Shown here: piece by piece, positions 1,256 through 23,720 of the stretch
Position numbering within the stretch: position 1 is the first letter of the stretch
Layout: every line of letters begins with the position of its first letter
DNA from: Gammaproteobacteria bacterium
Lineage (GTDB): Bacteria > Pseudomonadota > Gammaproteobacteria > Pseudomonadales > PIVM01
Assembly: GCA_003353945.1 (NCBI GenBank)
Contig: PIVM01000005.1
Location: 21,351-85,350, forward strand
DNA: 64,000 bases
Direction of reading: 5' to 3'
The notes under the pieces: model-generated
What the model was told of the DNA's origin: nothing
The model's database searches: none
What the model saw: the letters and a program-made list of their open reading frames with translations, nothing else
Position numbers and translations under genes: made by a program

Positions 1256-1267
1256 GTGACATGTCAC
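1256..1267. promoter_or_regulatory. perfect 12-bp palindrome GTGACATGTCAC (candidate operator; fourth copy of the motif family)
   Basis: Read directly at 1256-1267. It is intergenic, about 75 nt upstream of the 1182 start and downstream of the DUF1566 gene. The same 12-mer occurs at 6653-6664. No -24/-12 element was found next to this copy. Confidence 0.4.
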
Positions 1268-1349
1268 TTTAGCTTTATGACCTGACTTTTTGTCACTTCT
1301 CTGCTCTCAATATTCCCATTTGAAACAAGAAGAGGTAGCAATAACAAAA

Positions 1350-1883
1350 TCACTGCACGCTACGTACCAATCGAACACCACCAGTGTTGCTACGATGGTA
1401 ACTACTGGAATAGCCATAACCGAAATAAACGTACCATGCGCTTTTTGGATCACTGGCTTTGGCCGAAGCCGACCAAACATTCAAACCCGGATCAAGAGGA
1501 AAGACCGACGTATTGATCGCAGGTACCACACATTGTTCCTCGACAATAGAATACAGCTCTTTAAGATTGGGCAAACGCCAATCGCTGTAACCGGCAAATT
1601 CACTAATATCAGCCCGTTGCAAAGCCTCAGCCCAAGTAAATAAACCTGCAGACCCGCCGCAGGAACTGTCCCAGAGTTCGCCTGCTTCACCCTCAAGACA
1701 ACGCTTCCACATCAAACCCGTACGCATGTCAGTGGCTGTACCATCTTCTGCCCCTTCCTCTTCATGGATACTAAATTGTGCCGTGGGCGTGCTGGCAGGA
1801 ATCCCTTCCGTCTGGCAAGTCTGCTGTGCCAACACATAACACGGCATCATCATAATGATTGCCACTATACAGTTTTTCCACAT
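1350..1883 (-). CDS. small secreted DUF1566/Lcl C-terminal-type domain protein
   Basis: ORF 1350..1928. The start was chosen at MWKNCIVAIIMMMPCYVLAQQ (ATG 1883) by analogy with its paralogue at 7374; both share the same upstream GGGAGTGG RBS. Motifs TGLMWKRC, SDWRLPNLKEL and a terminal VRLVR are typical of DUF1566. Confidence 0.8.
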   Translation of the reverse strand: MWKNCIVAIIMMMPCYVLAQQTCQTEGIPASTPTAQFSIHEEEGAEDGTATDMRTGLMWKRCLEGEAGELWDSSCGGSAGLFTWAEALQRADISEFAGYSDWRLPNLKELYSIVEEQCVVPAINTSVFPLDPGLNVWSASAKASDPKSAWYVYFGYGYSSSYHRSNTGGVRLVRSVQ

Positions 1884-1973
1884 AATTCCACTCCCGGAGT
1901 AATCCATTTTTGCACAATCACTCACCAATATTTTTTAAACACACTGCAGCACATTACATAACACGCAGTATCA

Positions 1974-4900
1974 TCACTCTTCGCTACGAACCAGCCTCAC
2001 ATGACGCACGTCATCACGTCTGGAATAGTAATTGGCATAACCGTATTTGAACCCGAGTTGCCATGCGTGGTTTGAGCTGTTGGCACTCGCCGAAGCCGTC
2101 CAGTATCCATTCGAAACCGTATTGGGAAAGTACTGCGTATCAATTGCCGGACTGTGAGTATTCAAATTCAGCAGGCTTTTTAATTCCTTCACTGTCGGCA
2201 TACGCCAATCCGCATGACCGCAATAAGTTGCCTCATTCACCCTGTCGGTATAGGCCTGTGTATTACAATAGATTGACGCATCACCGTCATAGCCGTAACA
2301 GATGGCACCATCGTCATCTTGATAACCATTGGCTCCGGCATTGGTAGTAGAATCTGTGTTATACCAATTGTAGAGGTCATCGGCATCGTGCAATCCTTCA
2401 TTGCCTATCGTGGAATCGCTTCCTTTTTTCACTTCCCAGGTCAAGCCGGTCACGTTGTCTTGGACGCAATCCCATTCCTCAGCATCTGCTAGTAATGCCG
2501 CACCTTCTGAATCAATTTTTGTAAAGCTAAAACCGGCATGGCCATCGTCGTCGTCGTAATCGGTAACATCCCGCCCATGAGCGCAATCCTGTTGTTCATC
2601 AGTTTCGCCTATGCAAGTAGCGTTGTTACCGCTTGGGGCATTACCGCCCCAGATAAGCCCTGTATCGTTTAGAGGCTTGATAAGCACTGCCGCATCACAG
2701 GCATCACCTATACCGTTGTTGGCGCCACCGCGGTTGCCAGTGTCTTCTTGTCCAGGGTTATTGGCATCAGGGCAGTTATCACCTTGGGGTGAACGGTTGG
2801 GATCACCGTTGACGGGATCAATGACGTAAACGCCATCGCCATCTGAGTCATTACAGTAATCGGCATTGTTATCCGGATTCGCAATGGTATGACAGCTATC
2901 AACAGTTGGATCATCGTCAGCCGCTGCATTATAGAGACCATCTCCATCAGTGTCGGCGCAGACTGCAGCATCCTGACTGGCATTTGCACGGTTCGGGCAG
3001 TTGTCGCCAACACCGTTGTCATCTGCCAGGTCATAGTGTCCATCACTGTCCGTATCGGCACAGGCGGCCGGGTTGTTGTCCGCACGCTTCACGCCCACAC
3101 ATTTGTCGCCCCCATCAACTTCATTAACGCCATCACCATCGGTATCAACAAAACCGGCATCATCACAGACATCACCAATAGCATCACCGTCTCCATCGGC
3201 CTGCCCTGGATTTACATCTTCTGGACAGTTATCACCTTGGGGTACGCGGTTGGGATCACCATTGATAGGATCAATCACATAAACGCCATCGCCGTCTGGG
3301 TCATGACAGTAATCAGCATTGTTATCCGGATTTGAAATGTTCGGACAGCTATCCACAGTTGGATCATCGTCAGCCGCTGCATTATAGAGACCATCTCCAT
3401 CAGTGTCGGCGCAGACTGCAGCATCCTGACTGGTATTAGCGCGGTTCGGGCAGTTGTCGCCAACACCGTTGTCATCTGCCAGGTCATAGTGTCCATCACT
3501 GTCCGTGTCAGCACACGCAGCCGGGTTGTTGTCCGCACGCTTCACACCCACACAGGTATCCGCCCCATCAGCCTCGTTAACACCGTCGCCATCGGTATCG
3601 ATAATACTGGGCTCATCACAGACATCGCCAATACCATCACCGTCTTCATCGGCCTGCCCTGGATTCGCCATTTCCGGACAATTATCACCTTGGGGCACAC
3701 GAACCGGGTCACCATTGACGGAGTCAATGACGTATACGCCATCCTCATCTGGGTCATTACAGTAATCAGGATTGTTATCCAGATTTGAAATGCTCGGACA
3801 ACTATCGACAGTTGTGTCATTATCGGCGGCGGCATTGTAGAGACCATCACCGTCCGTATCGGCACACGCCGCTAAATTTTGAGACACATTTTGACGTGCT
3901 GGGCAATTGTCATCCAGTTGCGGTAGGCCATCACCGTCCGTATCCGGACCTCGGGGTGTCGGGTCACAGACGTTGCCCTGGCTATCATTATCGTCATTTG
4001 CCTGAGAACTGTTATGTTGCAAGGTACAGTTGTCAATGGTATCCGGTACGCTATCACCATCCTTATCCAGATCACAGGCATCACCGAGATTATCACCATC
4101 CAGATTTGACTGATTTCCATTGGGTGTATTGATGCAATTATCCACCGTATCTTTCACACCATCGTTATCACTGTCATCGCCATTGCCATTGCCATTGCCA
4201 TTGCCATTGACAGCGTCACAGGCATCACCATTACCATCACCGTCCGTATCAGACTGACTTGGATTTATAACGTAAAGACAGTTATCCTCCGTATTATCAG
4301 CTCCATCACCATCCAGGTCTGAATCACAAAGATCGCCCTCTCCATCGTCATCCTGATCTGATTGGTTGGTGCTGTTGACGGAGGGACAGTTATCGGCATT
4401 GTTGGGAATCGAATCACCATCGATATCGGAATCACAGAGATCGCCTTCATTATCACTGTCAAAATCGGACTGATTGGCATTGGCCACATCGGGACAGTTG
4501 TCAGCCGTGTTGTCTAACTCATCACCATCCCGATCATTATCACATGCATCACCCAAATCATCGTTATCCACATTGGCTTGATCCGTATTGGCTACCGTGG
4601 GGCAGTTATCGACAGTATCGAGTATAAAGTCACTGTCTTGATCAAGATTTTTCTGTAACTGCTGCAATTCCTGTTCGATTAAGTCAAGAGCAGACACACT
4701 GTCTGGCATAACATACTGCTGCTTCAGGTCATCCACCAGCTTTTGCATCTGCGCCAACACATGGAGAATGGAAATTGAACTAATATCGCTGCCACTCCCA
4801 TTACCCGTTGACAATCTACCCCCGTTACTGGCAAAACTCTGGGACAACTCAGTCATGGCTTGACCGATATTGGTATACCCTTGCTCCATCAAAACGCCCA

Positions 4901-5612
4901 TAATCGACGCTGAAAGTAATGCCGCTTTTTGCGCAGCAGGCTTCGCTTTACCAAAGGCCTGCTCATCAGTAATATCAACCACATCCAATTCCGTTAAACT
5001 ACCTTCGCCACTAACTTCGCCACCACCTTCGCCAAGGTCGATTTCAAAATAATCAGCGACCAATTGATTGGAGATTTCAACGAGCGAACTGGTAATTTGC
5101 GGTTGGATTTCAGCGAGTTTAGTCGCCATATCGGTGAGGGGGGAGACATTAACGGTGATGGTCTCTTCGTCTGCAGAGGTATTACTGGGGTCTTCCGTAC
5201 TAGGCACATTGGCCAGCGATGACAGCAAAAAGTCATCGCCCACGCCAAATTGCTCACCAAAGTCAACGTGGTTCCCCTCTCTATTCAGGCAGCCGGAGGT
5301 GAGATCACAGACCATGCGAGTTTGCTCATCCGAACGCACATCAATCCTGAGGATGACAGGTTCGCCGCAAACCTGAGCTTGATATTGTCCCTGCTCATCG
5401 GTGACCGTATCGACAGGCTCTGAGGGCGATCGGGTATTCGATTCGACCGTTTGCACCTGGACCTTACCACCAATCAACAAGCCCTTGGCAACCTTACCCT
5501 TTACTTGCCGACAACTTGTTTGCGTATCATTAGTGCCGCCGGATGAACCGCCACCACCGCAGCCAGCAACTAACAAGAAACCAATCAACAAGGATGATGC
5601 GATCTTGTTCAC
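1974..5612 (-). CDS. giant lipoprotein: N-terminal domain, TSP3 calcium-binding repeats, 151-aa repeat modules, C-terminal DUF1566 domain
   Basis: 1212-aa ORF with a GTG start. Lipobox LLVAG-C followed by a GGGGSS linker. About 12 DNC(P)xxxNxxQxDxDxDGxGDxCD motifs. C-terminus carries ADWRMPTVKELKSL ... VRLVRSEE. Confidence 0.85.
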   Translation of the reverse strand: MNKIASSLLIGFLLVAGCGGGGSSGGTNDTQTSCRQVKGKVAKGLLIGGKVQVQTVESNTRSPSEPVDTVTDEQGQYQAQVCGEPVILRIDVRSDEQTRMVCDLTSGCLNREGNHVDFGEQFGVGDDFLLSSLANVPSTEDPSNTSADEETITVNVSPLTDMATKLAEIQPQITSSLVEISNQLVADYFEIDLGEGGGEVSGEGSLTELDVVDITDEQAFGKAKPAAQKAALLSASIMGVLMEQGYTNIGQAMTELSQSFASNGGRLSTGNGSGSDISSISILHVLAQMQKLVDDLKQQYVMPDSVSALDLIEQELQQLQKNLDQDSDFILDTVDNCPTVANTDQANVDNDDLGDACDNDRDGDELDNTADNCPDVANANQSDFDSDNEGDLCDSDIDGDSIPNNADNCPSVNSTNQSDQDDDGEGDLCDSDLDGDGADNTEDNCLYVINPSQSDTDGDGNGDACDAVNGNGNGNGNGDDSDNDGVKDTVDNCINTPNGNQSNLDGDNLGDACDLDKDGDSVPDTIDNCTLQHNSSQANDDNDSQGNVCDPTPRGPDTDGDGLPQLDDNCPARQNVSQNLAACADTDGDGLYNAAADNDTTVDSCPSISNLDNNPDYCNDPDEDGVYVIDSVNGDPVRVPQGDNCPEMANPGQADEDGDGIGDVCDEPSIIDTDGDGVNEADGADTCVGVKRADNNPAACADTDSDGHYDLADDNGVGDNCPNRANTSQDAAVCADTDGDGLYNAAADDDPTVDSCPNISNPDNNADYCHDPDGDGVYVIDPINGDPNRVPQGDNCPEDVNPGQADGDGDAIGDVCDDAGFVDTDGDGVNEVDGGDKCVGVKRADNNPAACADTDSDGHYDLADDNGVGDNCPNRANASQDAAVCADTDGDGLYNAAADDDPTVDSCHTIANPDNNADYCNDSDGDGVYVIDPVNGDPNRSPQGDNCPDANNPGQEDTGNRGGANNGIGDACDAAVLIKPLNDTGLIWGGNAPSGNNATCIGETDEQQDCAHGRDVTDYDDDDGHAGFSFTKIDSEGAALLADAEEWDCVQDNVTGLTWEVKKGSDSTIGNEGLHDADDLYNWYNTDSTTNAGANGYQDDDGAICYGYDGDASIYCNTQAYTDRVNEATYCGHADWRMPTVKELKSLLNLNTHSPAIDTQYFPNTVSNGYWTASASANSSNHAWQLGFKYGYANYYSRRDDVRHVRLVRSEE
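2720..3870 (-). repeat. about 2.5 tandem in-frame copies of a 453-nt (151-aa) coding repeat
   Basis: The anchor acagttggatcatcgtcagccgctgcattatagagaccatc recurs at 2902 and 3355, with a more diverged copy at 3808, giving an exact 453-nt period. Copies 1 and 2 are roughly 90-95% identical by eye. Confidence 0.8.
4179..4208 (-). repeat. (GCCATT)5 hexanucleotide microsatellite encoding (NG)5
   Basis: Five perfect gccatt units were read directly. They encode the GNGNGNGNGNG linker inside the 1212-aa lipoprotein. Confidence 0.9.
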
Positions 5613-5743
5613 GTCTGAATACCCCTATTATATTTCACCTTCTGAACCGCCACCCCCTAAGAATAAGCCCGCGTAAATATGGCTTGGAGTATCAACTTTT
5701 CCATGAAAAAGTCGCTTTTGCGGACGTCAGAAGATGTCCATTA

Positions 5744-5870
5744 ACCCTAATAAGTCAGTTGAACCGTAATTAAAAGTACATTGTTGTCGCAGATAAAAAA
5801 TATTCCTGACATCTTGGAAAAATATCTCGATTTTGTACCTTGGCCCCTCGCTGTTGGTTCAACTGAGTTT
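5744..5870. mobile_element. MITE-like element; second copy of the family seen at 13270..13444
   Basis: Terminal inverted repeats tcagttgaacc (5755-5765) and ggttcaactga (5856-5866). The interior resembles the arms of the 13270 element. The segment is absent from the otherwise alignable leader of the paralogous gene (10792-11190). Confidence 0.4.
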
Positions 5871-6086
5871 CAATGTTTCAGTAAAAACTTTTTTTCTAGA
5901 TTTATTAGGCTATCCGTAACCTGCGTTCAGACTTTTTTGCAAAACCAAGCAAATCGCATCTGGTTATAATTTAACCACCATTGTACCGAAATTGTACCAC
6001 TGCGTAAATTATTTTTACCCGTACATCAGCTTTACCTCTATATAACTCAGACAACTCAGCCGAGTGCAAAAAAGCATATAAGATAT

Positions 6087-6446
6087 TTATATTTGCAGAT
6101 ATCGCACTGTACATAGACCAAATAATCCCAGAGCAAATAAAACGATGGTGCTTTGTTCTGCTGATTTAGTCTTGTCCGTACTAGTGATAGCATCTATGCT
6201 AACGACAATATTATCAATTCCCCACCATTCATCCGACTGCGTTGCAGGATCTCGACTAAAATTACCGAGATAATTTGTAAGACCGGTACCATCATAAATA
6301 TTATCAGAAGATATGGAAGAACAACTCCAAACCGTATCTATCCCATTTTCAAAACCCGTTTCATATTGATTCAGCGGTATTGTCTGAGCGGTGGAGACAG
6401 CTAGCGCTAATGGCAAGCTAAGAAAAAACCCTTTGGCCGTATTCAT
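6087..6446 (-). CDS. small secreted protein with a degenerate PEP-CTERM-like C-terminal sorting signal
   Basis: RBS GGAGAGG and signal peptide MNTAKGFFLSLPLALAVSTAQ. The C-terminus is WGIDNIVVS...TKSAEQSTIVLFALGLFGLCTVRYLQI. This has the PEP-CTERM layout (DN-x-V motif, short polar motif, TM helix, basic residue), but with AEQ in place of PEP. Confidence 0.6.
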   Translation of the reverse strand: MNTAKGFFLSLPLALAVSTAQTIPLNQYETGFENGIDTVWSCSSISSDNIYDGTGLTNYLGNFSRDPATQSDEWWGIDNIVVSIDAITSTDKTKSAEQSTIVLFALGLFGLCTVRYLQI

Positions 6447-6524
6447 TGCGCCTCTCCACTTTTTTTCAGATACACGACTTTACAAGTTGTGGATATCTAC
6501 TCATATCAAACTTGTAGGTAGTAT

Positions 6525-6542
6525 TAGCAATGGAGATGCCAA
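6525..6542 (-). promoter_or_regulatory. sigma-54 (-24/-12) promoter TGGCAT-CTCCA-TTGCTA
   Basis: The reverse complement of tagcaatggagatgccaa has GG and GC correctly spaced. It lies about 80 nt upstream of the ATG at 6446 and about 124 nt downstream of the palindrome centre at 6658. Confidence 0.6.
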
Positions 6543-6638
6543 CTTTGCTGCAGATTCTACAGCCGATAAACCACCATATTGGCAACGAATGGCATGCCAA
6601 TCAGGTCGTATTATGGGATTCTTTATTAAGAGGAGATA

Positions 6639-6665
6639 TGTGACACGCTATCGTGACATGTCACA
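6639..6665. promoter_or_regulatory. candidate enhancer (UAS): TGTGACAC-N6-GTGACATGTCACA
   Basis: An outer inverted repeat, TGTGACA N13 TGTCACA, contains the perfect 12-mer GTGACATGTCAC (6653-6664). It has the same layout and spacing as the site at 11305-11331. Confidence 0.5.
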
Positions 6666-6804
6666 AAAAAAATCAGAGAATTTTATTCGTAGTATTATGA
6701 AAAATGCCCAGTGTCGTGACGCCTCGGATTGTTGAATTGACGTTGTGCAGGCTCATTATGTTCGGCATTCCCATGTAACGCACAAGAACAGTAAGAAAAC
6801 AAAA

Positions 6805-7374
6805 TCATTGAGCGTCACGTACTAACCGCACATGACTGAAGTAGTCGACATCACCACCCTCACCGCTAAATTGCTCGCGGCTGTCAACGAAAGGAGCTCC
6901 ATCTTTGAAACGCACGAGCCATGACCCGTCTGAAACACTGCTACTGGCCGAAGACGACCAAACGCTCAAACCTGGATCATTGGGAAAAACCGTAGAATTT
7001 ATCGCAGGAGAATTACACTGAACTTCAACGATAGAACGAAGCTCCTTAAGATTAGGCAGGCGCCAATCGGTACGCCCTGCAAAGCCGCCACCGACGTTAA
7101 CAGTGTCTGACTGTTGTAATGCTCCGGCCCAGGTAAAGAAGCCTGTAGACTCAGACACGGCACAGGTAGACCCATTCCATAGTTCACCTATGTCAAGCTC
7201 CAGACAACGTTTCCACATTAAACCGGTACGGGTGTCAGTGGCCGTACCGTCTGGATGAATAACAAATTGCCCGGTCGGTGTGCTGGCGGGGATTGCCTCT
7301 ATTTGACAGATTTGCTCGGCAAACACATAACAGGGCATAATCATAATGACAGCCACTAAGCTGTTTTTCCACAT
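6805..7374 (-). CDS. small secreted DUF1566/Lcl C-terminal-type domain protein (paralogue of 1350..1883)
   Basis: Signal peptide MWKNSLVAVIMIMPCYVFAEQ; motifs TGLMWKRC, TDWRLPNLKELRSIVE and a terminal VRLVRDAQ. Confidence 0.8.
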   Translation of the reverse strand: MWKNSLVAVIMIMPCYVFAEQICQIEAIPASTPTGQFVIHPDGTATDTRTGLMWKRCLELDIGELWNGSTCAVSESTGFFTWAGALQQSDTVNVGGGFAGRTDWRLPNLKELRSIVEVQCNSPAINSTVFPNDPGLSVWSSSASSSVSDGSWLVRFKDGAPFVDSREQFSGEGGDVDYFSHVRLVRDAQ

Positions 7375-7443
7375 AGTTCCACTCCCGGTGTATTTTAATA
7401 TTGTTCAATGCAGGGGTATCAAAGCTCCCCAAACAAACCAAAC

Positions 7444-10400
7444 TTACTCTCCGCTACGCACCAACCGCACACCATAAGGGCAGGAGCGGCCATCAGCGCT
7501 GGTGCTGTCACTGTCATAAAAAAAGTCGACTAGCCACGCGTCGTCTGAAAAGCCAGCATACGCCGAAGACGACCAGTATCCGTATCCGTAATCCGGCCAC
7601 CGGTTTCCACAATACTCTTCCGGTAGTGTATATCGTGTATTGGGAAAATACGCCGTATCAATGGCCGAATTGTATGCATTTAAATTAACCAGACCTTCCA
7701 GTTCATTTATCGACGGCACACGCCAGTCAGTAAAGCCGCATAGTTCATATTTATTACTAACCTCGACCAGTTCATTCCAGCTACCTTTACCGTCATAACG
7801 CGTCCCATACCCTGCTGTAAGCAATGCCGTCTTACCACCCCAGAGGTATAATCGACCCGCATCGTGAACTCCCTCGTCATTCGTTTTCACTTCCCACACC
7901 AGACCGGTCACATTATCGCGCACACAGGCCCATGGCTGTGTGCTATAGTCGAGCGACTGGTTTTCCAATGCTTTTCCATCGTCACCCATTTTCGTGTAGC
8001 TAAAACCTGCATGACCATCACTATCATTGTTATGGGTAGCATCTCGCCCATGAGAACAATCCTGCTGGCCAATGGTTTCACCATCACAGCCTTCACTGTT
8101 GCCGGATGGGTAGCTGCCACCGAAGGTGAGACCGGTGTCATTGAGCATCGTCTTTGTTGTGTTAATATCAAGTTTAATGTCTCTGATAGCCACACTGTCA
8201 TTGTTTTCTTGGACAATGCTGAGCACTGCCTGACCATCAATAAGAATGACCAGATCATTGACTGAGAAGGTGAACTTCCATGGTTCAAAGCGGCCATCCT
8301 CTTGCCAACAAAGCGCGCCTTCTTCACATTCTGTAATCAGCACACCATCAAGGTATACACGAACCGGTGCTGAACTATCAAATCCGCTACCACCCCATTC
8401 ACCTGAGATACGGGCACCCGTAATGACTTGATTGACTGGCACAGTAAAATTCAAATTCTGAACCTCACCCCAGTCATAGGGATAATCACCTTCTCCACAT
8501 TTGGGCCAGCAGGGGGGTGTTAGAAAGACATCACTAAGCGCAATTTCTATCAAATCGTCACAAACATCACCGATGCCATTTCCGTTTTTGTCTGCTTGAT
8601 CCTTATTTGGAATGTTCGGACAGTTATCCCCCCCTACTCCATCATCGTTTGCTAGATCATAGTATTCATCACCATCCGTATCGGCACACGCTCCTGGATT
8701 ATTATCTGCTCGTTTGACTTCCGGACAGTTATCATCCATCAACGCAATCCCATCACCATCTGCATCCGGACCTCGAGGCGTTGGATCGCAAGCATTGCCC
8801 AGGCTGTCATTATCGTCATTTGCCTGAGAGCTGTTGTGGTGTGAGGGACAGTTGTCAGTGCTATTCGGCACGTTATCACCGTCCTTATCCGAATCGCATA
8901 CATCACCCAGACCATCACCATCCATGTCTGCTTGATCACCATTGGAAGTATTGAGGCAATTATCAGTAGAATCTTCCACCCCATCACTATCGCTGTCGTT
9001 AAAAGTGTCACAAGCATCACCAATGCCGTCACCGTCCACATCAGACTGGCTGGAATTTGACACGGAAGGGCAGTTATCCCCGGTGTTATTCGCACCGTCA
9101 CCGTCCTTATCCAGATCGCAGACATCACCCAGATCGTCACCGTCCAGATTGACCTGATCACCATTGGGTGTATTGAGGCAATTATCAGTAGAATCTACCA
9201 CCCCATCACTATCGCTGTCGTTAAAAGTGTCACAAGCATCACCAATGTCATCGCCATCCACATCAGACTGACTGGGATTTGACACGGAAAGACAGTTATC
9301 CCCACTGTTATTATTTCCATCACCATCCAGATCCGAATCACAGACATCACCCAGACCGTCACCGTCCAGATCAGCTTGATCACCATTGGGTATATTGAGG
9401 CAATTGTCAGTGGAATCTACCACCCCATCACTATCACTGTCGTTGAACGTGTCACAGGCATCACCAATGCCATCGCCGTCCACATCAGACTGACTGGGAT
9501 TTGAAACGGAAGAGCAGTTATCCCCGGTGTTATCCTTTCCATCACCATCTTTGTCCAGATCGCAGACATCACCCAAATCGTCACCGTCCAGGTTAGCCTG
9601 ATCCTCATTGGGGGTATTGAGGCAATTATCAGTAGAATCTGCCACCCCATCATTATCGCTGTCATTGAACGTGTCACAGGCATCACCGGTCCCATCGCCA
9701 TCCACATCTGCCTGACTGGTATTGGAAATGGAAGGACAGTTATCCCCGGTATTATTCACACCATCACCATCCAGATCCGAATCACAGTTATCGCCTTCGC
9801 CATCGTTATCCTGATCGGCCTGATCGGGATTACTAACAAGTGGGCAGTTGTCAACGCTGCCTAATATCAAGTCGCTATCTTCATCAAGCCTTCCTTGTAT
9901 TTGCATCAACTCTAGTCTGATCATGCCAAGATCAAGCGTGCCGTGCAGTTGCTCCAGATCATCAATTAATACTTGCATTTTCGCAAACACATGCAAGATA
10001 GAAATCGAACCGACACCGCTGCCGCTAATCGGCAAAAAACTACCTCCGTTGCCAGCAAAACTCGTGGACAGTGCAGTCATGCCTGCACCAATATTGGTAA
10101 ACCCCTGGTCCATCAAAACGCCCATCAGTGCCGCCGAAACCAGAGCCGCTTTTTGCGCGATCGGTGTCGCTTTACCAAAGGCTTGCTCATCAGTGATATC
10201 GACCACTTCAAGTTCCGTTAAACTGCCTTCGCCTGTATCGATTTCAAAATACTCTGCAACCAACTGATTGGCCTGCTCTACAACTTCACTGGTAATAACC
10301 GATTGAATTTCAGCCAACTTAGCCGCCATATCGGTAAGTGGAGAGACATTCACGATGATAGGCTCGTCATCGGCAGAAGTATCACTGGCAGGGTCCGCTA

Positions 10401-10791
10401 TCGAAGACAATAAAAAATCATCATCCAAGGCGAATCGCGCGCCAAAATCGACTTGATTTCCCTGTCTGTCCAGACAACCCTTAGTGAGATCACAGACCAT
10501 GCGAGTCTGCTCATCTGCACGCACATCCACCCTGAAAATAACCGGATCACCACAAATCTCAGTTTGGTACTGACCCTGCTCATCGGTAATCGTATCGACG
10601 GGTTCGGCGGATGATTGGGAATTTGATTCGACGGGTTGCACCTGGACCTTGCCACCGATCAGCAAGCCCTTGGCTACTTTGCCGCTGACCTGCCGACATT
10701 GATCTGGTGCCGCACCACCAGAAGAAGAACCACCACCACAACCGGCAATGACTAAAAGACAGATCAGCAAGGACGATGCGAGTTTGTTCAC
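7444..10791 (-). CDS. giant lipoprotein: shared N-terminal domain, TSP3 repeats, unknown beta-rich domain, C-terminal DUF1566 domain
   Basis: 1115-aa ORF with a GTG start in the same context as its paralogue. Lipobox LVIAG-C GGGSS. The N-terminal roughly 330 aa are colinear with the 1212-aa protein. About 12 DNCxxxxNxxQ motifs. C-terminus carries TDWRVPSINELEGL ... VRLVRSGE. Confidence 0.85.
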   Translation of the reverse strand: MNKLASSLLICLLVIAGCGGGSSSGGAAPDQCRQVSGKVAKGLLIGGKVQVQPVESNSQSSAEPVDTITDEQGQYQTEICGDPVIFRVDVRADEQTRMVCDLTKGCLDRQGNQVDFGARFALDDDFLLSSIADPASDTSADDEPIIVNVSPLTDMAAKLAEIQSVITSEVVEQANQLVAEYFEIDTGEGSLTELEVVDITDEQAFGKATPIAQKAALVSAALMGVLMDQGFTNIGAGMTALSTSFAGNGGSFLPISGSGVGSISILHVFAKMQVLIDDLEQLHGTLDLGMIRLELMQIQGRLDEDSDLILGSVDNCPLVSNPDQADQDNDGEGDNCDSDLDGDGVNNTGDNCPSISNTSQADVDGDGTGDACDTFNDSDNDGVADSTDNCLNTPNEDQANLDGDDLGDVCDLDKDGDGKDNTGDNCSSVSNPSQSDVDGDGIGDACDTFNDSDSDGVVDSTDNCLNIPNGDQADLDGDGLGDVCDSDLDGDGNNNSGDNCLSVSNPSQSDVDGDDIGDACDTFNDSDSDGVVDSTDNCLNTPNGDQVNLDGDDLGDVCDLDKDGDGANNTGDNCPSVSNSSQSDVDGDGIGDACDTFNDSDSDGVEDSTDNCLNTSNGDQADMDGDGLGDVCDSDKDGDNVPNSTDNCPSHHNSSQANDDNDSLGNACDPTPRGPDADGDGIALMDDNCPEVKRADNNPGACADTDGDEYYDLANDDGVGGDNCPNIPNKDQADKNGNGIGDVCDDLIEIALSDVFLTPPCWPKCGEGDYPYDWGEVQNLNFTVPVNQVITGARISGEWGGSGFDSSAPVRVYLDGVLITECEEGALCWQEDGRFEPWKFTFSVNDLVILIDGQAVLSIVQENNDSVAIRDIKLDINTTKTMLNDTGLTFGGSYPSGNSEGCDGETIGQQDCSHGRDATHNNDSDGHAGFSYTKMGDDGKALENQSLDYSTQPWACVRDNVTGLVWEVKTNDEGVHDAGRLYLWGGKTALLTAGYGTRYDGKGSWNELVEVSNKYELCGFTDWRVPSINELEGLVNLNAYNSAIDTAYFPNTRYTLPEEYCGNRWPDYGYGYWSSSAYAGFSDDAWLVDFFYDSDSTSADGRSCPYGVRLVRSGE
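8810..9700 (-). repeat. about 4 tandem in-frame copies of a 222-nt (74-aa, two TSP3 units) coding repeat
   Basis: The anchor ttgaggcaatt recurs at 8951, 9173, 9395 and 9617, an exact 222-nt period. The protein repeat DACDTFNDSD(S/N)DGV.DSTDNCLN... occurs four times. Confidence 0.8.
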
Positions 10792-11190
10792 GTTTCAGTA
10801 CCCCTAAATAGTTTCCACTCCCTGGACTGCTGCCCCCTAACGTTGAACCAGCATACTATTATGGTTCGGGGTTTCGACTCATACGGAAAAAGTCGCTTTT
10901 TACAGATACCAGGAGACTTCCTTTAAATGATAATTTTTTTGTTTTAGGTGTTTTTTCAAGGCTGGCTTTAACCTAACTTCAGGCTTTTTGCATACCGCTA
11001 CTTAGCACCATAGGTTATAAAATGACCGCCATAATACCCAAATTGTGTTATTTCATGCAATTGTTTTTTGTAATACCCATACCTAGGGTCTGAAAAGAAA
11101 TAACTTAGCTTCATATACCCCAGACAACTCAGTAAGGTGTAAAAATCAATTTTCAACACTGATTGCTTTTATCCAGCATCGGCAAGCAAA

Positions 11191-11209
11191 TAGCAATACA
11201 TATGCCAAC
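11191..11209 (-). promoter_or_regulatory. sigma-54 (-24/-12) promoter TGGCAT-ATGTA-TTGCTA
   Basis: This is the reverse complement of tagcaatacatatgccaac. It shares the flanks TAGCAAT-N4-ATGCCAACTTT with the 6525 promoter. It lies about 125 nt from the palindrome centre and about 400 nt upstream of the GTG at 10791, implying a long leader. Confidence 0.6.
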
Positions 11210-11304
11210 TTTATTCCACGGCCAAACAGGCAGCTAACATCACTAATCGACACAAACAGCATGTCAATCCGGTAACTTGCGGGCTTTTACGCTTAGAAGA
11301 GCTG

Positions 11305-11331
11305 TGTGACATGTAATCGAGACATGTCACA
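11305..11331. promoter_or_regulatory. candidate enhancer (UAS): TGTGACATGT-N6-GACATGTCACA
   Basis: An outer inverted repeat, TGTGACA N13 TGTCACA, with the same spacing as 6639-6665. It sits in the divergent region between the giant lipoprotein operon and the EBP gene. Confidence 0.5.
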
Positions 11332-11532
11332 ACAATGCCAATACCCCTATTTTGGTTCTACGATCCTTAATCATGGCATTCGAACCATACTCAAATTATT
11401 GAGCTTTTATCGGCAATACAATCTCCTTGACACAGTCGGCCGCCCCCGCACAGCACTGGATATTTAGCAAACATCGTGATTAAATAAACCGATTAACACC
11501 TCTGCAACGGACAGTGCTTTTTCTTACTAACA

Positions 11533-13143
11533 ATGTCAACAGAACAAACCCTAATCACGCAAAGCCCTGCCACCATACAAACGTCCGAGGTGTTGATTCC
11601 AACGGCGACCATAATCTATCACCCCAATCTTGAACGCATCGGAGAAGAAGCACCACTACTTGAATTGAAACAACATCAATCACAAGATATTTCTCGATTA
11701 ACGCCGGATTTCTCACAACCCTCAACAGATAAAAGCTGCAATATTGCGGACCCTTATATTAGTCGCAAACCGCTTACCCTATCCCTTGTCAATGGTGGCC
11801 TGAGAATAGAGAAATCGGCAGAACTTACGGGTAAAGTTTCGGTAAATGATCGCTTACTGATAACCGAGCTGTTTATCGTAGGTGAAGAATGGCGAAACGG
11901 TGTCATTATTTCAATGAACAACCGTGTTGTCCTTTTTTTACACTTTTCTCCACAGCAACGCGATTTATCATTAAATAAACACGGTTTACTGGGTGAAAGT
12001 TCGGCGATTTGCAAGGTAAGACGAACCATTGAGCGTGTTGCAGATTTGCAAGTCCCCGTACTGATCCGAGGAGAAACAGGCACTGGCAAGGAGCTTGTCG
12101 CGCAGGCATTACATAATAGCAGTCCAAGAAAACACCGAAAGTTTGTCAGCGTCAATGTGGGAGCGATACCGGATACGCTGGCTATTTCTGAGATATTTGG
12201 CGCAAAAAAAGGTGCCTTTACTGGCGCTTCAAAAGATCGAGCTGGCTATTTTCAACAAGCCGATAACAGCACGCTGTTTTTAGATGAAATTGGTGACGCC
12301 AACGAACAAGTACAGGTTGCACTGCTGCGCACACTCGAAACGGGTGAAGTAACACCTGTAGGTAGTACGGGATCTATCCATGTGGATGTTCGGCTAGTAG
12401 CCGCTACGGATGCCAATCTTGAAAAAAAGATTTTGGATGAGCGCTTTCGCAGCCCACTATTACAGCGCTTAGCCGGATTTGAAATTCGCATTCCGCCGCT
12501 ACGCTCACGACGCGACGATATAGGACGTCTCTTTATCTATTTCTTGACCATCGAAATAAATAATGTTGGCGATGAAAAACACCTCGCTAACACATCACAT
12601 CATGTTTCATTTTGGGCAAGTGTTTTTGAAAAAGCCTGTTTATACAACTGGCCAGGGAACATCCGTCAGCTAAAAAACATAGCTCAGCAACTTGCCATTT
12701 ACAATCGTGACGCCGAGCAGTTAACCATTCCAGACCATATTCTTGAGTTATTTTCACTGCAGCCCAAGCAGAATGTCTCTGCACCGGAAACAGCTCAAAC
12801 AGCAAACACACCAGATCCACTAACAGAAGATACCCAGCACGAATCCACCCCTGCCTCACCGCGCCGAAAACCGAGCACTGTTACCGAACAGGAACTATTG
12901 GACGCACTCGAAGCACAACGCTGGGACTTAAAAGGAACAGCCGAGCGACTTAATATTTCACGCGCAGCGCTTTATAAAATAATCGACAACAACCCCTCTG
13001 TACGCACTGCGAGCGATTTCAGTCTTGAAGAACTCAACTCTGCCTATCAAAAGAGCGATGGCGATATTGACGTAATGGTCGATAAACTGAAGGTTTCCAA
13101 AGCAGCACTAAAACGCAGGCTCAAGGATCTTAGCCTAAATTAA
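11533..13143 (+). CDS. sigma-54-dependent transcriptional activator (bacterial enhancer-binding protein, VasH-like by context)
   Basis: AAA+ core with Walker A GETGTGKE, the sigma-54 contact loop GAFTGA, and a DEIG Walker B. C-terminal Fis-type HTH TAERLNISRAALYKII, plus a second HTH-like segment VDKLKVSKAALKRRLKDL. Confidence 0.9.
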   Translation: MSTEQTLITQSPATIQTSEVLIPTATIIYHPNLERIGEEAPLLELKQHQSQDISRLTPDFSQPSTDKSCNIADPYISRKPLTLSLVNGGLRIEKSAELTGKVSVNDRLLITELFIVGEEWRNGVIISMNNRVVLFLHFSPQQRDLSLNKHGLLGESSAICKVRRTIERVADLQVPVLIRGETGTGKELVAQALHNSSPRKHRKFVSVNVGAIPDTLAISEIFGAKKGAFTGASKDRAGYFQQADNSTLFLDEIGDANEQVQVALLRTLETGEVTPVGSTGSIHVDVRLVAATDANLEKKILDERFRSPLLQRLAGFEIRIPPLRSRRDDIGRLFIYFLTIEINNVGDEKHLANTSHHVSFWASVFEKACLYNWPGNIRQLKNIAQQLAIYNRDAEQLTIPDHILELFSLQPKQNVSAPETAQTANTPDPLTEDTQHESTPASPRRKPSTVTEQELLDALEAQRWDLKGTAERLNISRAALYKIIDNNPSVRTASDFSLEELNSAYQKSDGDIDVMVDKLKVSKAALKRRLKDLSLN

Positions 13144-13269
13144 TTCGGCAATATGCCTGCACCTCATCCCGACCCCCGTTATTTCAAAAAACAGTTACTT
13201 CAATAAACAGTGCCAGATCGCTGATATCTGCGCCCCTGACCATCGCCTTATTGATTACGATGTCATTAT

Positions 13270-13444
13270 CCTAGAAAACTCAGTTGAATCTACTGTGAGG
13301 GCCTAAGGCACTAAATCTAGAAGTTTTTTCTAAAATTTTAAACTCACCGTATGGGTGATACTGCTTTCGCTTAAAATTTCAGGAAAAAACTCCTATCTTC
13401 AGCACCTTAAACCCTCTCGCTACGATTCAACTGAGTTTTCTAGG
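13270..13444. mobile_element. MITE-like 175-nt imperfect hairpin element
   Basis: 21-nt terminal inverted repeats: cctagaaaactcagttgaatc (13270-13290) and gattcaactgagttttctagg (13424-13444). The arms are complementary over about 75 nt. ATTAT is present on both flanks, a possible target-site duplication. Confidence 0.55.
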
Positions 13445-13454
13445 ATTATCAAAT

Positions 13455-13488
13455 TGTGACATCCCAGACATGACTATGTCGTGTCACT
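13455..13488. promoter_or_regulatory. degenerate member of the TGTGACA/TGTCACA palindrome family upstream of hcp
   Basis: The sequence is TGTGACATcccaGACATgactATGTCgTGTCACt. It forms nested inverted repeats built from the same GACAT/ATGTC half-sites, about 90 nt upstream of the -24/-12 element at 13554. Confidence 0.35.
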
Positions 13489-13553
13489 TTTAATTGTTAC
13501 GGCAAATACAGTGTAAAGTCACCCAATTCCAAGGCATTTTCGCCATTTATTAT

Positions 13554-13569
13554 TGGCACGGTTATTGAT
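13554..13569 (+). promoter_or_regulatory. sigma-54-like promoter TGGCACG-GTTA-TTGAT
   Basis: The -24 element TGGCACG is perfect and the spacing is correct. The -12 element is TTGA rather than TTGC. It lies about 90 nt upstream of the hcp ATG. Confidence 0.5.
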
Positions 13570-13659
13570 ACTACATAGACAAGAGCTAATACAAGAACTT
13601 AGACAAGCAGTAAGCAATACCAACTAACAAACAAACTACACCCACTGGAGGGTACTAAA

Positions 13660-14142
13660 ATGGCTGTTGATATGTTTTTAAAAATCGAAGGTGTGGATGG
13701 TGAAGCAATCGATCATGCGCACGGTGACGAAATTGATTTGCTAGCCTGGAGTTGGGGCATGAGTCAATCAGGCAGTATGCATGTTGGCACTGGCGGCGGT
13801 GCTGGCAAAGTCAGTGTTCAGGATATCTCACTAACAAAATACATTGATAAATCTACACCCAACCTGATCAAAACTTGCTGCACAGGTAAACACTACCCGG
13901 AAGCTAAAATCACCGTTCGCAAAGCGGGTGACAAGCCGGTTGAATATTACATTATTACGATGACCGATGTATTGGTGACTTCCGTATCCACCGGAGGCAG
14001 CGGTGGCGAAGACCGCTTGACTGAAAATGTATCGCTAAATTTTGCCAAGGTTAAAGTGGAATATACACCGCAGGCGAAAGACGGCAGCGCTGGCGCCACT
14101 ATTGAAACTGTTTTTGATATTGAAGCGAATATCTCAGAATAA
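13660..14142 (+). CDS. tssD: type VI secretion tube protein Hcp (TssD)
   Basis: 160 aa. MAVDMFLKIEGVDGEA..HGDEIDLLAWSWGMSQSG....GGGAGKVSVQDISLTKYIDKSTPNL is the canonical Hcp1-family N-terminus. Strong RBS GGAGGG. Confidence 0.92.
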   Translation: MAVDMFLKIEGVDGEAIDHAHGDEIDLLAWSWGMSQSGSMHVGTGGGAGKVSVQDISLTKYIDKSTPNLIKTCCTGKHYPEAKITVRKAGDKPVEYYIITMTDVLVTSVSTGGSGGEDRLTENVSLNFAKVKVEYTPQAKDGSAGATIETVFDIEANISE

Positions 14143-14160: not shown

Positions 14161-14186
14161 GCCGGTCAATATGGCCGGCTTTTTTG
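14161..14186 (+). terminator. rho-independent terminator of hcp
   Basis: 7-bp stem gccggtc/ggccggc, 5-nt loop, then TTTTTT. Confidence 0.65.
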
Positions 14187-14361: not shown

Positions 14362-14399
14362 AAAAAAAAGCCCCATGCAAAAAACATGGGGCTTTTTTT
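14362..14399. terminator. bidirectional rho-independent terminator
   Basis: Stem gccccatg/catggggc (14370-77 / 14385-92), flanked by an A-run on one side and a T-run on the other. It lies between convergent hcp and the 14422..17589 gene. Confidence 0.7.
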
Positions 14400-14421
14400 A
14401 CTTATTTATCCAAAACAACGT

Positions 14422-22392: not shown

Positions 22393-22638
22393 ATTTACGC
22401 TCCATTGCGCTCACCTTGATCGTAATCAAGTTGCGCTGCAGTTTGGTTCTCGAAACCGGCCATTATAAACAGATTTAGGGGCTTAAGTGAGTGGCGTTTA
22501 TGTTTTTGGTCATTCCAGCTGCAGATAAATTGTATAAGATGTGAGCGCCCTTTAAGAAATTGCATTATCAATAACCTATGGAGGTACTGGTGCCCAGGAC
22601 GCTCTGCAATGCCATTAACGTAAACACGACGCATTTTT

Positions 22639-22705
22639 GTAGGGTGCGCCCCGCGCACATTCAGAATCCGACATTAAACGCTAATGGTGCGCGTGCCCAC
22701 CGTAC
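22639..22705. repeat. REP-like GC-rich inverted repeat
   Basis: gtagggtgcgccccgcgcac (22639-58) and gtgcgcgtgcccaccgtac (22687-705) are imperfect reverse complements. Each arm is itself hairpin-forming. Confidence 0.4.
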
Positions 22706-22774
22706 TTTCTTTGGTAGCAATTTTACGAATCGTCAAGCTGCAATGCGCAAGCTTATTGCACCTTACTGCTGACT

Positions 22775-23158
22775 TTATGCCTGCTCTTTGATTTCAAAGA
22801 GATTCTGGTCAAAATCTTCTATAAAGACAATAACACTGTCACCTCTTGCAACTTTGCGTATCGGCAGTTGCATAGCAGCGCATTTTTCGAGAAATTGATC
22901 CCGCCCCTGCACTTCTAAGCAGGTATGACTCATTCGGGGCTGGTTAAACTCCTTTTCGTCGCTTAAAAAAATCTCAATACTCAATTCGCCATTGCTATAG
23001 ACCAACATCGGATAATCGTTGTTACGCTGGAATATTTCCTGTGCAAGATCAGCCATTAAAAGCCTGCTTTTCACTTTTTCCAACTGGAGCAAGTCTCTGT
23101 AAAAGCGGTCACAGTTTTCTTCACTCTGACAAACAATACCAACATGATTCATCTTCAT
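22775..23158 (-). CDS. VOC (glyoxalase/bleomycin-resistance/dioxygenase) family protein
   Basis: 127 aa. MNHVGIVC...FYRDLL...SHTCLEV...FIEDFDQNLFEI matches the paired beta-alpha-beta-beta-beta signature of VOC proteins. Confidence 0.65.
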   Translation of the reverse strand: MKMNHVGIVCQSEENCDRFYRDLLQLEKVKSRLLMADLAQEIFQRNNDYPMLVYSNGELSIEIFLSDEKEFNQPRMSHTCLEVQGRDQFLEKCAAMQLPIRKVARGDSVIVFIEDFDQNLFEIKEQA

Positions 23159-23221
23159 TGCAGATTCCGGATTAACAATTTGGGTTTGGGAATTGTTGCT
23201 GGAGTATAAACCAGGATTGGA

Positions 23222-23705: not shown

Positions 23706-23720
23706 AGGCCCTAACTGTCA

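What the first reader, a model, noticed from the sequence alone, without database searches (positions are those of the whole stretch)
1256..14142. Candidate sigma-54 regulon: one activator, a recurring TGTGACA..TGTCACA operator and three -24/-12 promoters link an orphan Hcp to giant-lipoprotein operons
The evidence:
- The palindrome GTGACATGTCAC occurs perfectly at 1256 and 6653. It occurs as TGTGACATGT-N6-GACATGTCACA at 11305 and in degenerate nested form at 13455.
- All four copies are intergenic and all fall within the first 13.5 kb. I saw none in the intergenic DNA of the remaining 50 kb. A given 12-mer is expected about 0.01 times in 64 kb.
- The sites at 6639-6665 and 11305-11331 share one architecture: a half-site plus a full palindrome, with the outer TGTGACA N13 TGTCACA.
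- Each of those two sites sits about 125 nt upstream of a well-formed sigma-54 promoter (TGGCAT-N5-TTGCTA at 6525 and at 11191).
- The roughly 100 nt between operator and promoter are not conserved between the two loci. That argues for selection on the sites rather than simple recent duplication.
- The third site lies about 90 nt upstream of a TGGCACG-N4-TTGA element in front of hcp.
- The only sigma-54 activator in the window (11533..13143) sits in the middle of these sites.

Together this predicts co-regulation of a T6SS tube protein with surface TSP3/DUF1566 lipoprotein operons. I have not seen that pairing described.
Basis: partly seen in the sequence, partly recalled or inferred. Interest (0 to 1): 0.78.

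Follow-up and report, generated by a model that had tools for sequence, protein, structure and literature searches.

The report
Type VI activator regulon with adhesin operons
A sigma-54 activator next to the type VI secretion tube gene hcp appears to bind a conserved palindrome (GTGACATGTCAC) found in front of hcp in many related bacteria, and in this genome the same switch also sits in front of two operons for very large calcium-binding surface lipoproteins.

Summary
GTGACATGTCAC is perfect at 1256 and 6653. TGTGACA-N13-TGTCACA occurs at 6639 and 11305. Each of those two composite sites lies exactly 111 nt upstream of a minus-strand TGGCAT-N5-TTGCTA promoter. All counts are far above chance.

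Comparative data back the regulon reading. In about 15 loci whose activator is 50-69% identical to this one, hcp, vgrG and PAAR genes are preceded by the same palindrome and a -24/-12 promoter. hcp always carries the same odd -12 element (TTGAT), and spacings are helically phased. These activators usually sit at the edge of type VI secretion clusters. The protein has an FHA-like N-terminal fold, an AAA+ core with GAFTGA, and two tandem helix-turn-helix motifs.

So it works like VasH or Sfa2, which activate hcp and vgrG through sigma-54. That is a known kind of circuit with a different sensor domain.

The link to the two TSP3/Lcl_C lipoprotein operons rests on this genome only. The operons are old paralogues in which enhancer and promoter are conserved above the neutral level. 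No relative shows the link.

Giant lipoproteins co-expressed with type VI secretion have a precedent (TasL in Vibrio fischeri). The site at 1256 has no promoter and remains unexplained.

The parts
11533..13143 (+). Sigma-54 enhancer-binding protein of 536 aa. It has an FHA-like N-terminal domain (about residues 21-140), an AAA+ core with GAFTGA at residue 227, and two tandem HTH motifs at the C-terminus (about 454-486 and 512-532).
   Evidence: Pfam Sigma54_activat 1.2e-59 and HTH_8. GAFTGA and the C-terminal motifs. AlphaFold model with pLDDT 83. The N-terminal model matches FHA domains in its best-ranked 43 PDB hits. Orthologues sit in type VI secretion clusters.
13455..13487 (+). hcp enhancer. 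It has a distal half-site TGTGACAT and a proximal degenerate palindrome ATGTCGTGTCAC, 66 nt upstream of the -24 element.
   Evidence: Sequence. It is positionally equivalent to the (G/A)TGACATGTCAC site, which lies 67 nt upstream of the hcp promoter in several orthologous loci and 56, 57, 66 or 76 nt in others.
13554..13569 (+). hcp sigma-54 promoter TGGCACGGTTATTGAT, with a -12 of TTGA instead of TTGC.
   Evidence: The same TGGCACG-N4-TTGAT element precedes hcp in L002, L006 (three times), L007, L009, L010, L011, L052, L066 and L085.
13660..14142 (+). hcp, the type VI secretion tube protein (160 aa), followed by a terminator at 14161-14179.
   Evidence: Pfam T6SS_HCP 7e-44. TIGR03344 scores above its cut-off. 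It is 80-90% identical to the hcp next to orthologous activators. Terminator.
11305..11331 (-). Enhancer of lipoprotein operon B: TGTGACATGTAATCGAGACATGTCACA. It lies in the divergent region between the activator gene and giant gene B.
   Evidence: It is 23/27 identical to enhancer A.
11192..11207 (-). Sigma-54 promoter of operon B, TGGCATATGTATTGCT, 111 nt downstream of the palindrome.
6805..10791 (-). Operon B. It holds a giant lipoprotein (7444-10791; 1115 aa; lipobox VIAGC; TSP3 repeats plus Lcl_C) and a small Lcl_C protein (6805-7374). A leader of about 390 nt precedes the first gene.
   Evidence: Pfam. Lipobox read from the translation. Paralogous to operon A.
6639..6665 (-). Enhancer of lipoprotein operon A: TGTGACACGCTATCGTGACATGTCACA (perfect palindrome plus half-site).
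6526..6541 (-). Sigma-54 promoter of operon A, TGGCATCTCCATTGCT, 111 nt downstream of the palindrome.
1350..6446 (-). Operon A. It holds orf119 (6087-6446; signal peptide), a conserved leader (5613-6086), a giant lipoprotein (1974-5612; 1212 aa; TSP3 plus Lcl_C) and a small Lcl_C protein (1350-1928).
   Evidence: Pfam. Leader homology with locus B.
1256..1296 (-). Orphan site: the perfect palindrome (1256-1267) plus a GTGACA half-site 23 nt upstream on the minus strand (1296..1291). No -24/-12 element is associated with it.
   Evidence: No promoter was found.

Best explanation
The protein at 11533-13143 is a type VI secretion-associated sigma-54 enhancer-binding protein.

Proposed mechanism (inferred throughout):
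1. It binds GTGACATGTCAC-type palindromes, usually accompanied by an extra GTGACA half-site.
2. It assembles there and contacts sigma-54 RNA polymerase bound at -24/-12 promoters lying 56-150 nt downstream on the same face of the helix.
3. It opens those promoters by ATP hydrolysis.

In relatives its targets are the secreted tube and spike genes hcp, vgrG and PAAR. In this genome the same enhancer and promoter design also drives two paralogous operons. Each encodes a giant TSP3/Lcl_C surface lipoprotein and a small Lcl_C protein. Tube protein and putative calcium-dependent adhesins would therefore be switched on together.

The FHA-like N-terminal domain probably couples activity to a Ser/Thr kinase and phosphatase pair. 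Such a pair is encoded next to the activator in relatives.

Shown: the sequence features, their conservation and their spacing. Inferred: binding, activation and the input signal.
For: 1. Motif and promoters are real and non-random in the window.
2. Phylogenetic footprint. In loci with 63-69% identical activators (L002, L006, L007, L009, L010, L011, L052, L066), hcp is preceded by (G/A)TGACATGTCAC and then TGGCACG-N4-TTGAT. In L006 a PAAR gene has GTGACGTGTCAC plus TGGCACATAACTTGTT. vgrG genes in the same metagenomes have the palindrome plus TGGCAT/C-N5-TTGCT. A clade only 50% identical (L084, L085) keeps the same site and the same hcp promoter.
3. The activator is encoded at the edge of, or inside, type VI clusters in L002, L004, L007 and L084, and directly beside hcp-vgrG-PAAR genes in L085.
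4. The first HTH (LNISRAALYK) is identical in both type VI clades. It differs in the Myxococcus clade, whose locus lacks the palindrome.
5. Site-to-promoter gaps are 56, 57, 58, 59, 66, 67, 68, 76, 89, 106, 111 and 150 nt. They are phased at 10.5 bp (Rayleigh R = 0.69).
6. The pattern scan of metagenomes gave 71 loci, 55 distinct after removing duplicates. 62% of the distinct loci carry TTGCT, TTGCA or TTGAT at -12, which the pattern did not require, against about 19% by chance.
7. Between the two lipoprotein loci the enhancer is 23/27 identical and all 11 specified promoter bases are identical. The spacing is exactly 111 nt in both. The spacer is 57% identical and third codon positions are 54% identical.
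8. The protein has the AAA+ core and GAFTGA.
Against: - There are no transcription or binding data.
- The lipoprotein link is seen in one genome only. No homologue of these lipoproteins occurs in any fetched relative, and a distant homologue (L083) has no such promoter.
- The two lipoprotein loci are paralogues, so they count as one evolutionary event.
- The same perfect palindrome also precedes sigma-54 promoters next to an unrelated activator family with a different HTH. The motif is therefore not exclusive to this protein.
- The window's own hcp site is degenerate (3 mismatches).
- The perfect site at 1256 has no promoter.
- The window holds no type VI core genes, no rpoN, and no kinase or phosphatase.
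Confidence: 0.65

Rival explanations
1. The palindrome and sigma-54 promoters in front of the lipoprotein operons are functional. However, they are served by another enhancer-binding protein of similar DNA specificity encoded elsewhere in the genome. In that case hcp and the lipoproteins are not co-regulated.
For: An unrelated activator family (34% identity, different HTH) sits next to the same perfect palindrome in sediment metagenomes. The lipoprotein promoters (TTGCTA, gap 111) differ in type from the hcp promoter (TTGAT, gap 66).
Against: Enhancer B lies in the divergent region directly upstream of the activator gene. No other activator is in the 64 kb. vgrG promoters of relatives are of the same TGGCAT-N5-TTGCT type as the lipoprotein promoters and use the same site.
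Confidence: 0.15
2. The sites at the lipoprotein loci are inherited leftovers of a duplication or rearrangement of type VI regulatory DNA. They no longer drive transcription. The giant genes are expressed from promoters in their conserved leaders.
For: The perfect site at 1256 has no promoter, which shows that orphan sites exist here. The leaders share a conserved box that could hold a sigma-70 promoter. In locus B the first ORF starts about 390 nt after the predicted start.
Against: Enhancer and promoter are conserved well above the neutral level, and the 111-nt spacing is exact, between paralogues whose proteins are only 51-58% identical. Both promoters match the consensus at all specified positions.
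Confidence: 0.12
3. The palindrome is the operator of a conventional dimeric regulator (repressor or CRP-like factor). Its nearness to -24/-12 promoters is incidental.
For: TGTGA...TCACA resembles the CRP half-sites. The site at 1256 lies 74 nt before a start codon without a sigma-54 promoter.
Against: The half-site spacing is N4, not the N6 of CRP. In 55 distinct metagenome loci the site is followed by good -24/-12 promoters at phased distances. Within related loci it occurs intergenically only upstream of hcp, vgrG or PAAR promoters.
Confidence: 0.05

Closest known systems
VasH (Vibrio cholerae, V. fischeri, Aeromonas), the type VI secretion enhancer-binding protein acting with RpoN
   Same: Both are sigma-54 activators encoded with type VI genes. 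VasH switches on the hcp (and vgrG) operons, including orphan or auxiliary clusters, rather than the structural cluster (PMC3439928; review PMC10482370). Here hcp, vgrG and PAAR carry the enhancer and -24/-12 promoter in relatives.
   Different: Orthology was not tested because no VasH sequence was at hand. This family has an FHA-like N-terminal fold and two tandem HTH motifs. A precise enhancer motif can be read from the comparative data. In this window the activator-hcp pair is detached from any type VI core cluster.
Sfa2 (Pseudomonas aeruginosa H2 type VI system)
   Same: Sfa2 is an RpoN-dependent activator encoded in the main cluster that also controls orphan vgrG and hcp clusters (PMC8855297).
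   Different: Sfa2 has an N-terminal GAF domain. Only one ChIP site was found, about 2 kb from the promoter, and no motif was defined (PMC8855297). Here the fold is FHA-like and the sites lie 56-150 nt upstream.
FHA-domain enhancer-binding proteins of Myxococcus xanthus (Jelsbak, Givskov and Kaiser 2005, PMC549468; reference seen in PMC6971385)
   Same: Full-length homologues at 44-47% identity occur in Myxococcus, Archangium, Pyxidicoccus and Corallococcus. The N-terminal fold is FHA-like. A Ser/Thr kinase is encoded nearby (L086; relatives L002, L007, L010, L011, L085).
   Different: Pfam's FHA model does not match. The myxobacterial locus examined has no type VI genes and no palindrome, and its first HTH differs.
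TasL, the type VI secretion associated lipoprotein of Vibrio fischeri
   Same: TasL is a very large predicted outer-membrane lipoprotein, co-expressed with type VI proteins and needed for cell-cell contact before killing (PMC9040878). Calcium promotes that aggregation and killing (title of PMC9769598). Here giant lipoproteins with calcium-binding TSP3 repeats share the hcp switch.
   Different: The domains differ. TasL is over 380 kDa with fibronectin type III-like repeats. These proteins are about 120 kDa with TSP3 repeats and an Lcl_C domain. Homology was not tested. TasL lies inside the type VI island, whereas these genes flank only the activator and hcp. Direct sigma-54 wiring is not reported for tasL in the papers read.

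Membership tests
Bacterial enhancer-binding protein (sigma-54 activator) | AAA+ sigma-54 interaction domain with Walker A and the GAFTGA loop | tested here: met
   PF00158 1.2e-59 over residues 153-318. GAFTGA at 227. The invariant G180/G183/G185/K186/E187 are present.
Bacterial enhancer-binding protein (sigma-54 activator) | C-terminal Fis-type helix-turn-helix | tested here: met
   HTH_8 at 454-482, 22.5 bits against a cut-off of 22. A second HTH-like motif lies at about 512-532.
Bacterial enhancer-binding protein (sigma-54 activator) | Activates transcription from -24/-12 promoters by binding upstream sites | not testable with these tools
   Only the co-occurrence of sites, promoters and the gene is shown.
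Sigma-54 promoter | GG at -24 and GC at -12, ten bases apart (TGGCAC-N5-TTGCW) | tested here: met
   Met for 6541..6526 and 11207..11192. The hcp promoter at 13554 has GG-N10-GA, so it fails the strict rule. The same TTGAT is nevertheless conserved in front of hcp in more than 10 related loci.
VasH/Sfa2-type type VI secretion activators | Encoded within or beside a type VI secretion cluster | tested here: inconclusive
   Met in relatives. L002, L004 and L007 have TssM and TagF. L084 has hcp-hcp-vgrG-PAAR-activator-Fha-TssJKLM. In the window only hcp is adjacent, and no core genes occur in 64 kb.
VasH/Sfa2-type type VI secretion activators | Sequence orthology or the same sensory domain (GAF in Sfa2) | tested here: not met
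   The N-terminal domain has an FHA-like fold, not GAF. Sfa2's domain is described in PMC8855297. Direct comparison with VasH was not possible.
FHA-domain enhancer-binding proteins | N-terminal FHA domain | tested here: inconclusive
   Foldseek: the best-ranked 43 PDB hits are all FHA domains, with E from 3e-4 to 6e-2 and target TM-scores mostly 0.55-0.72. Pfam FHA does not match even at E <= 10. Conserved R35, S77-R78 and N87-G88 resemble FHA loop residues, but phosphothreonine binding is untested.
TasL-like type VI associated lipoproteins | Large lipoprotein encoded in a type VI locus and needed for contact-dependent killing | not tested
   Lipoboxes LVAGC and VIAGC were read from the sequence. 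No TasL sequence was available for comparison. Function is not testable here.
CRP/FNR-type operator (TGTGA-N6-TCACA) | Six-base spacer between the half-sites | tested here: not met
   Here TGTGA-CATG-TCACA has a four-base spacer.

The most novel reading that the evidence does not exclude
This is a distinct, widespread family of type VI secretion activators. It has an FHA-like sensor, an AAA+ core and a double HTH.

The family would read the threonine-phosphorylation pathway (PpkA/PppA-type kinase and phosphatase encoded next door). It would convert that signal into transcription of the expendable tube and spike parts through a defined enhancer, GTGACATGTCAC.

In this organism the circuit has recruited two operons of calcium-binding giant surface lipoproteins. 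Adhesion to a target and loading of the weapon would then be one transcriptional decision.
Probability: 0.3. Interest if true: 0.65.

Novelty: new variant of a known kind. Interest (0 to 1): 0.52.

Why it matters
Sigma-54 activators are known to control hcp and vgrG genes. However, the VasH and Sfa2 papers read here (PMC3439928, PMC8855297) define no activator-binding motif. The comparative data here give three testable things:
- a 12-bp enhancer;
- a characteristic hcp promoter (-12 TTGAT);
- phased spacing, for a whole marine and sediment clade of type VI activators with an unusual FHA-like sensor.

If the lipoprotein operons are real targets, this would be a direct transcriptional link between a contact-dependent weapon and candidate calcium-dependent adhesins. 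That would parallel TasL in Vibrio fischeri, where the wiring is not known. The motif can also be used to predict type VI regulons in uncultured bacteria.

Tried and rejected
- Genome collection scan with the activator found only an unrelated Gemmataceae activator. The source genome and close relatives are not in that set.
- Exact look-up of the window's activator in the contig index failed, so the rest of the 109-kb source contig could not be read.
- Rfam, including sub-threshold hits, found nothing in the leaders or intergenic regions. It picked up only terminator-like noise near 14363-14462 and one sub-threshold miRNA-family hit at 13312-13401.
- No IHF consensus (<=1 mismatch) lies in the three enhancer-promoter spacers.
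- A -24/-12 element for the site at 1256 was sought on both strands and not found.
- orf119 and the 180-aa protein downstream of site 1 are not homologous.
- The N-terminal domain of the giant lipoprotein had no hits by word-index search. The exhaustive search gave only the paralogue and about 500 distant relatives (<=39% identity) without Pfam domains. One of their loci (L083) has no palindrome or sigma-54 promoter.
- CRP-like and NifA-like (TGT-N10-ACA) readings were rejected on spacing.
- A mobile-repeat reading was rejected. Only the 12-27 nt sites are shared, and the flanks are not.
It was rewritten with a D between the gaps.
- The sigma-54-like match before a TpsA gene in L009 lies inside coding sequence, with no full palindrome upstream. 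It was not counted.


Full report
**1. Checking the observation**

The palindrome GTGACATGTCAC is perfect at 1256-1267 and 6653-6664. A one-mismatch copy lies at 11319-11330. At up to one mismatch there are 3 matches against 0.18 expected, and none of 100 dinucleotide shuffles reached 3.

The composite TGTGACA-N13-TGTCACA occurs at 6639-6665 and 11305-11331, which is 2 against 0.02 expected.

A scan for TGGCAC-N5-TTGCW found only two intergenic one-mismatch hits in 64 kb. Both are on the minus strand: TGGCATCTCCATTGCT at 6541..6526 and TGGCATATGTATTGCT at 11207..11192.

In both loci the palindrome ends exactly 111 nt before TGGCA.

In front of hcp the element is TGGCACGGTTATTGAT (13554-13569). 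Its -12 is GA instead of GC. A distal GTGACAT (13456) and a degenerate ATGTCGTGTCAC (13476-13487) lie 66 nt upstream of it.

The gene calls are right:
- Two giant lipoproteins with TSP3 repeats and an Lcl_C domain (1974-5612 and 7444-10791).
- Two small Lcl_C proteins (1350-1928 and 6805-7374).
- A sigma-54 activator (11533-13143).
- Hcp (13660-14142).

The rest of the window encodes two more TSP3 proteins, a chemotaxis cluster, two-component proteins and metabolic genes. It holds no other activator and no type VI core gene. The other TGTCACA hits lie inside TSP3 coding repeats.

**2. What the activator is**

Close orthologues (63-69% identity, full length) exist only in marine and sediment metagenomes. 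Their contexts are as follows:
- In L002, L007 and L004 the gene sits at the end of a type VI secretion cluster. L002 and L007 show TssM and TagF-PP2C. L004 also shows Fha, TssJ, TssK and TssL.
- In L002, L007, L010 and L011 it is followed directly by hcp.
- In L006 it lies with a PAAR gene and two called hcp genes, plus a third hcp-type promoter at the locus end.
- In L009 it is divergent from hcp.
- In a clade at about 50% identity it is embedded in hcp-hcp-vgrG-PAAR-activator gene runs. In L084 that run continues into Fha-TssJ-TssK-TssL-TssM-TagF.

The protein has the AAA+ core with GAFTGA at residue 227.

An AlphaFold model (pLDDT 83) shows an all-beta N-terminal domain. Modelled alone, that domain matches FHA domains in its best-ranked 43 PDB hits. 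Pfam's FHA model does not match.

The C-terminus carries two HTH-like motifs in tandem: LNISRAALYKII and KVSKAALKRRLKDL.

Full-length homologues at 44-47% identity are myxobacterial. Myxococcus is where FHA-type enhancer-binding proteins were first described (Jelsbak et al. 2005, reference seen in PMC6971385).

In several relatives a Ser/Thr kinase and a PP2C phosphatase are encoded next to the activator. L085 has a kinase about 2.7 kb downstream.

**3. The palindrome is the conserved enhancer of this family**

In every related locus that carries hcp, hcp is preceded by (G/A)TGACATGTCAC, often followed by TTT. A gap of 56, 57, 66, 67 or 76 nt follows, then TGGCACG-N4-TTGAT. This is the same unusual -12 as in the window.

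Further cases:
- In L006 a PAAR gene has GTGACGTGTCACTTTTAG and, 150 nt on, TGGCACATAACTTGTT.
- In the 50% clade, hcp has TGTGACATGTCACTTTCC and TGGCACGTATGTTGATAT with a gap of 102 nt, twice.
- Within the related loci, copies with up to one mismatch occur only at these promoters.

I also scanned the metagenome collection for the perfect palindrome followed 56-116 nt later by TGGCAY-N5-TTG. This returned 71 loci. After removing duplicates, 62% of the distinct hits carry TTGCT, TTGCA or TTGAT at -12. The pattern did not require this, and chance would give about 19%. Most hits are therefore real promoters.

The downstream genes of those hits include:
- hcp (L016, L033, L052, L066, L077, and a second Hcp type in L029 and L037);
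- vgrG (L018, L028, L035, L069, L076, L078; Pfam check).

L028 lies on the same contig as the type VI cluster and activator of L005.

The gaps of the type VI promoters, including the window's 66 and 111 nt, are phased at 10.5 bp (Rayleigh R = 0.69). The values are not all independent.

The enhancers usually combine the full palindrome with an extra GTGACA(T) half-site 19-31 nt away.

The first HTH is identical in the two clades that share the palindrome. It differs in the Myxococcus stipitatus homologue, whose locus lacks both the palindrome and type VI genes.

**4. The lipoprotein operons**

Both giant proteins have lipoboxes: LVAGC and VIAGC.

The two operons are paralogues. The giant proteins are 51% identical and the small Lcl_C proteins 58%. 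The regulatory regions align colinearly. Measured identities:

| Region | Identity between loci A and B |
|---|---|
| Enhancer | 23/27 |
| Specified promoter bases | 11/11 |
| Spacer | 55/96 (57%) |
| Third codon positions, N-terminal domain | 54% |

The spacing is exactly 111 nt in both loci. The sites are therefore conserved above the local neutral level.

The promoters are of the TGGCAT-N5-TTGCT type also seen at vgrG in relatives.

In locus A the promoter first drives orf119 (6087-6446), and then a 474-nt leader precedes the giant gene. In locus B the leader is about 390 nt. The leaders are homologous.

No homologue of these lipoproteins, orf119 or the 180-aa protein occurs in any fetched locus. 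The N-terminal domain of the giant proteins has only distant relatives, and one such locus shows no comparable control region.

**5. What does not fit**

The perfect site at 1256 has the typical architecture on the minus strand: GTGACA-N23-GTGACATGTCAC. It lies only 73 nt before the ATG (1182) of a signal-peptide protein. No -24/-12 element is within reach on either strand. It may be a decayed promoter region or may have another use. It cannot be assigned.

The same perfect palindrome also precedes sigma-54 promoters next to an unrelated activator family in sediment metagenomes. The motif is therefore not exclusive to this protein.

**6. Comparison with what is known**

Three published systems frame the finding:
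- VasH with RpoN activates the hcp operons, but not the main cluster, in V. cholerae (PMC3439928).
- VasH and Sfa2 are encoded in the main cluster and control orphan clusters (PMC10482370, PMC8855297). Sfa2 has a GAF sensor, and only one distant ChIP site is known (PMC8855297).
- TasL is a lipoprotein of over 380 kDa in the V. fischeri type VI island. It is co-expressed with the system and needed for cell-cell contact (PMC9040878). Calcium promotes that behaviour (title of PMC9769598, seen).

The circuit here therefore works like VasH or Sfa2, but it has an FHA-like sensor and a readable enhancer. The lipoprotein link has a functional precedent but no sequence or wiring precedent that I could find.

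**7. Verdict**

The regulon reading is well supported for hcp by independent comparative evidence. It is plausible but single-genome for the lipoprotein operons. The finding is a new variant of a known kind, of moderate interest.

Noticed in passing
window 5613-6086 and 10792-11140 (minus strand): The long untranslated leaders before the two giant lipoprotein genes are homologous. They share a conserved box, TTTTTRCAC-N5-CTGAGTTGTCTGRGKTATAT, which could be a second (sigma-70) promoter or an RNA element. There is no Rfam match.
   Followed up: partly
window 6087-6446 (minus strand): orf119, the first gene after promoter A, has a signal peptide and a C-terminal hydrophobic tail ending in basic residues (...STIVLFALGLFGLCTVRYLQI). 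This looks like a sorting signal. It matches no Pfam or NCBIfam family and is absent from locus B.
   Followed up: partly
L012, L014, L026, L036, L046, L047, L053, L058, L068, L070, L074: In sediment metagenomes the same perfect palindrome lies 99-102 nt before TGGCAT/C-N5-TTGCT-type promoters. These drive small (73-100 aa) Lys-rich proteins with an LCPF...(D/E)CY motif. A different sigma-54 activator (about 34% identity, ordinary single HTH) is encoded next door.
   Followed up: partly
L034 491-586 and L044 (minus strand): dnaK is preceded by the perfect palindrome and a consensus -24/-12 promoter (TGGCACCCCCATTGCT, gap 69). This suggests sigma-54 control of a chaperone gene in some uncultured lineage.
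   Followed up: no
L019 10745-10842: A 273-aa protein with a PEP-CTERM-type tail (VVPEP..., hydrophobic stretch, KKKNC) follows the palindrome and TGGCATAAATATTGCT (gap 72).
   Followed up: no
window 12890-13140 (activator residues about 454-532): The activator family carries two HTH-like motifs in tandem at its C-terminus. Most sigma-54 activators have one. Both motifs are highly conserved across the 32 aligned homologues.
   Followed up: partly
window 9006, 9228, 9450, 9672: TGTCACA recurs every 222 nt inside giant gene B. This reflects near-identical TSP3 module repeats at the DNA level and explains the coding-region half-site hits.
   Followed up: partly
window 22393-24483: The ORF at 24013-24483 is only a fragment of a 7TMR-DISM receptor (end of the extracellular domain plus the first helices). 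No ORF of 150 aa or more lies in the 1.6 kb before it. It may be a disrupted gene.
   Followed up: no
window 14363-14399: A strong bidirectional terminator hairpin (15-16 pairs with T-runs on both sides) lies between hcp and the convergent TSP3 gene. hcp also has its own terminator at 14161-14179.
   Followed up: no
L009 9338-9353 (minus strand): A consensus-like TGGCATTCATTTTGCT lies 96 nt before a 1833-aa TpsA (two-partner secretion) gene next to the activator-hcp pair. It sits inside the end of the tpsB coding sequence, and no full palindrome lies upstream.
   Followed up: partly
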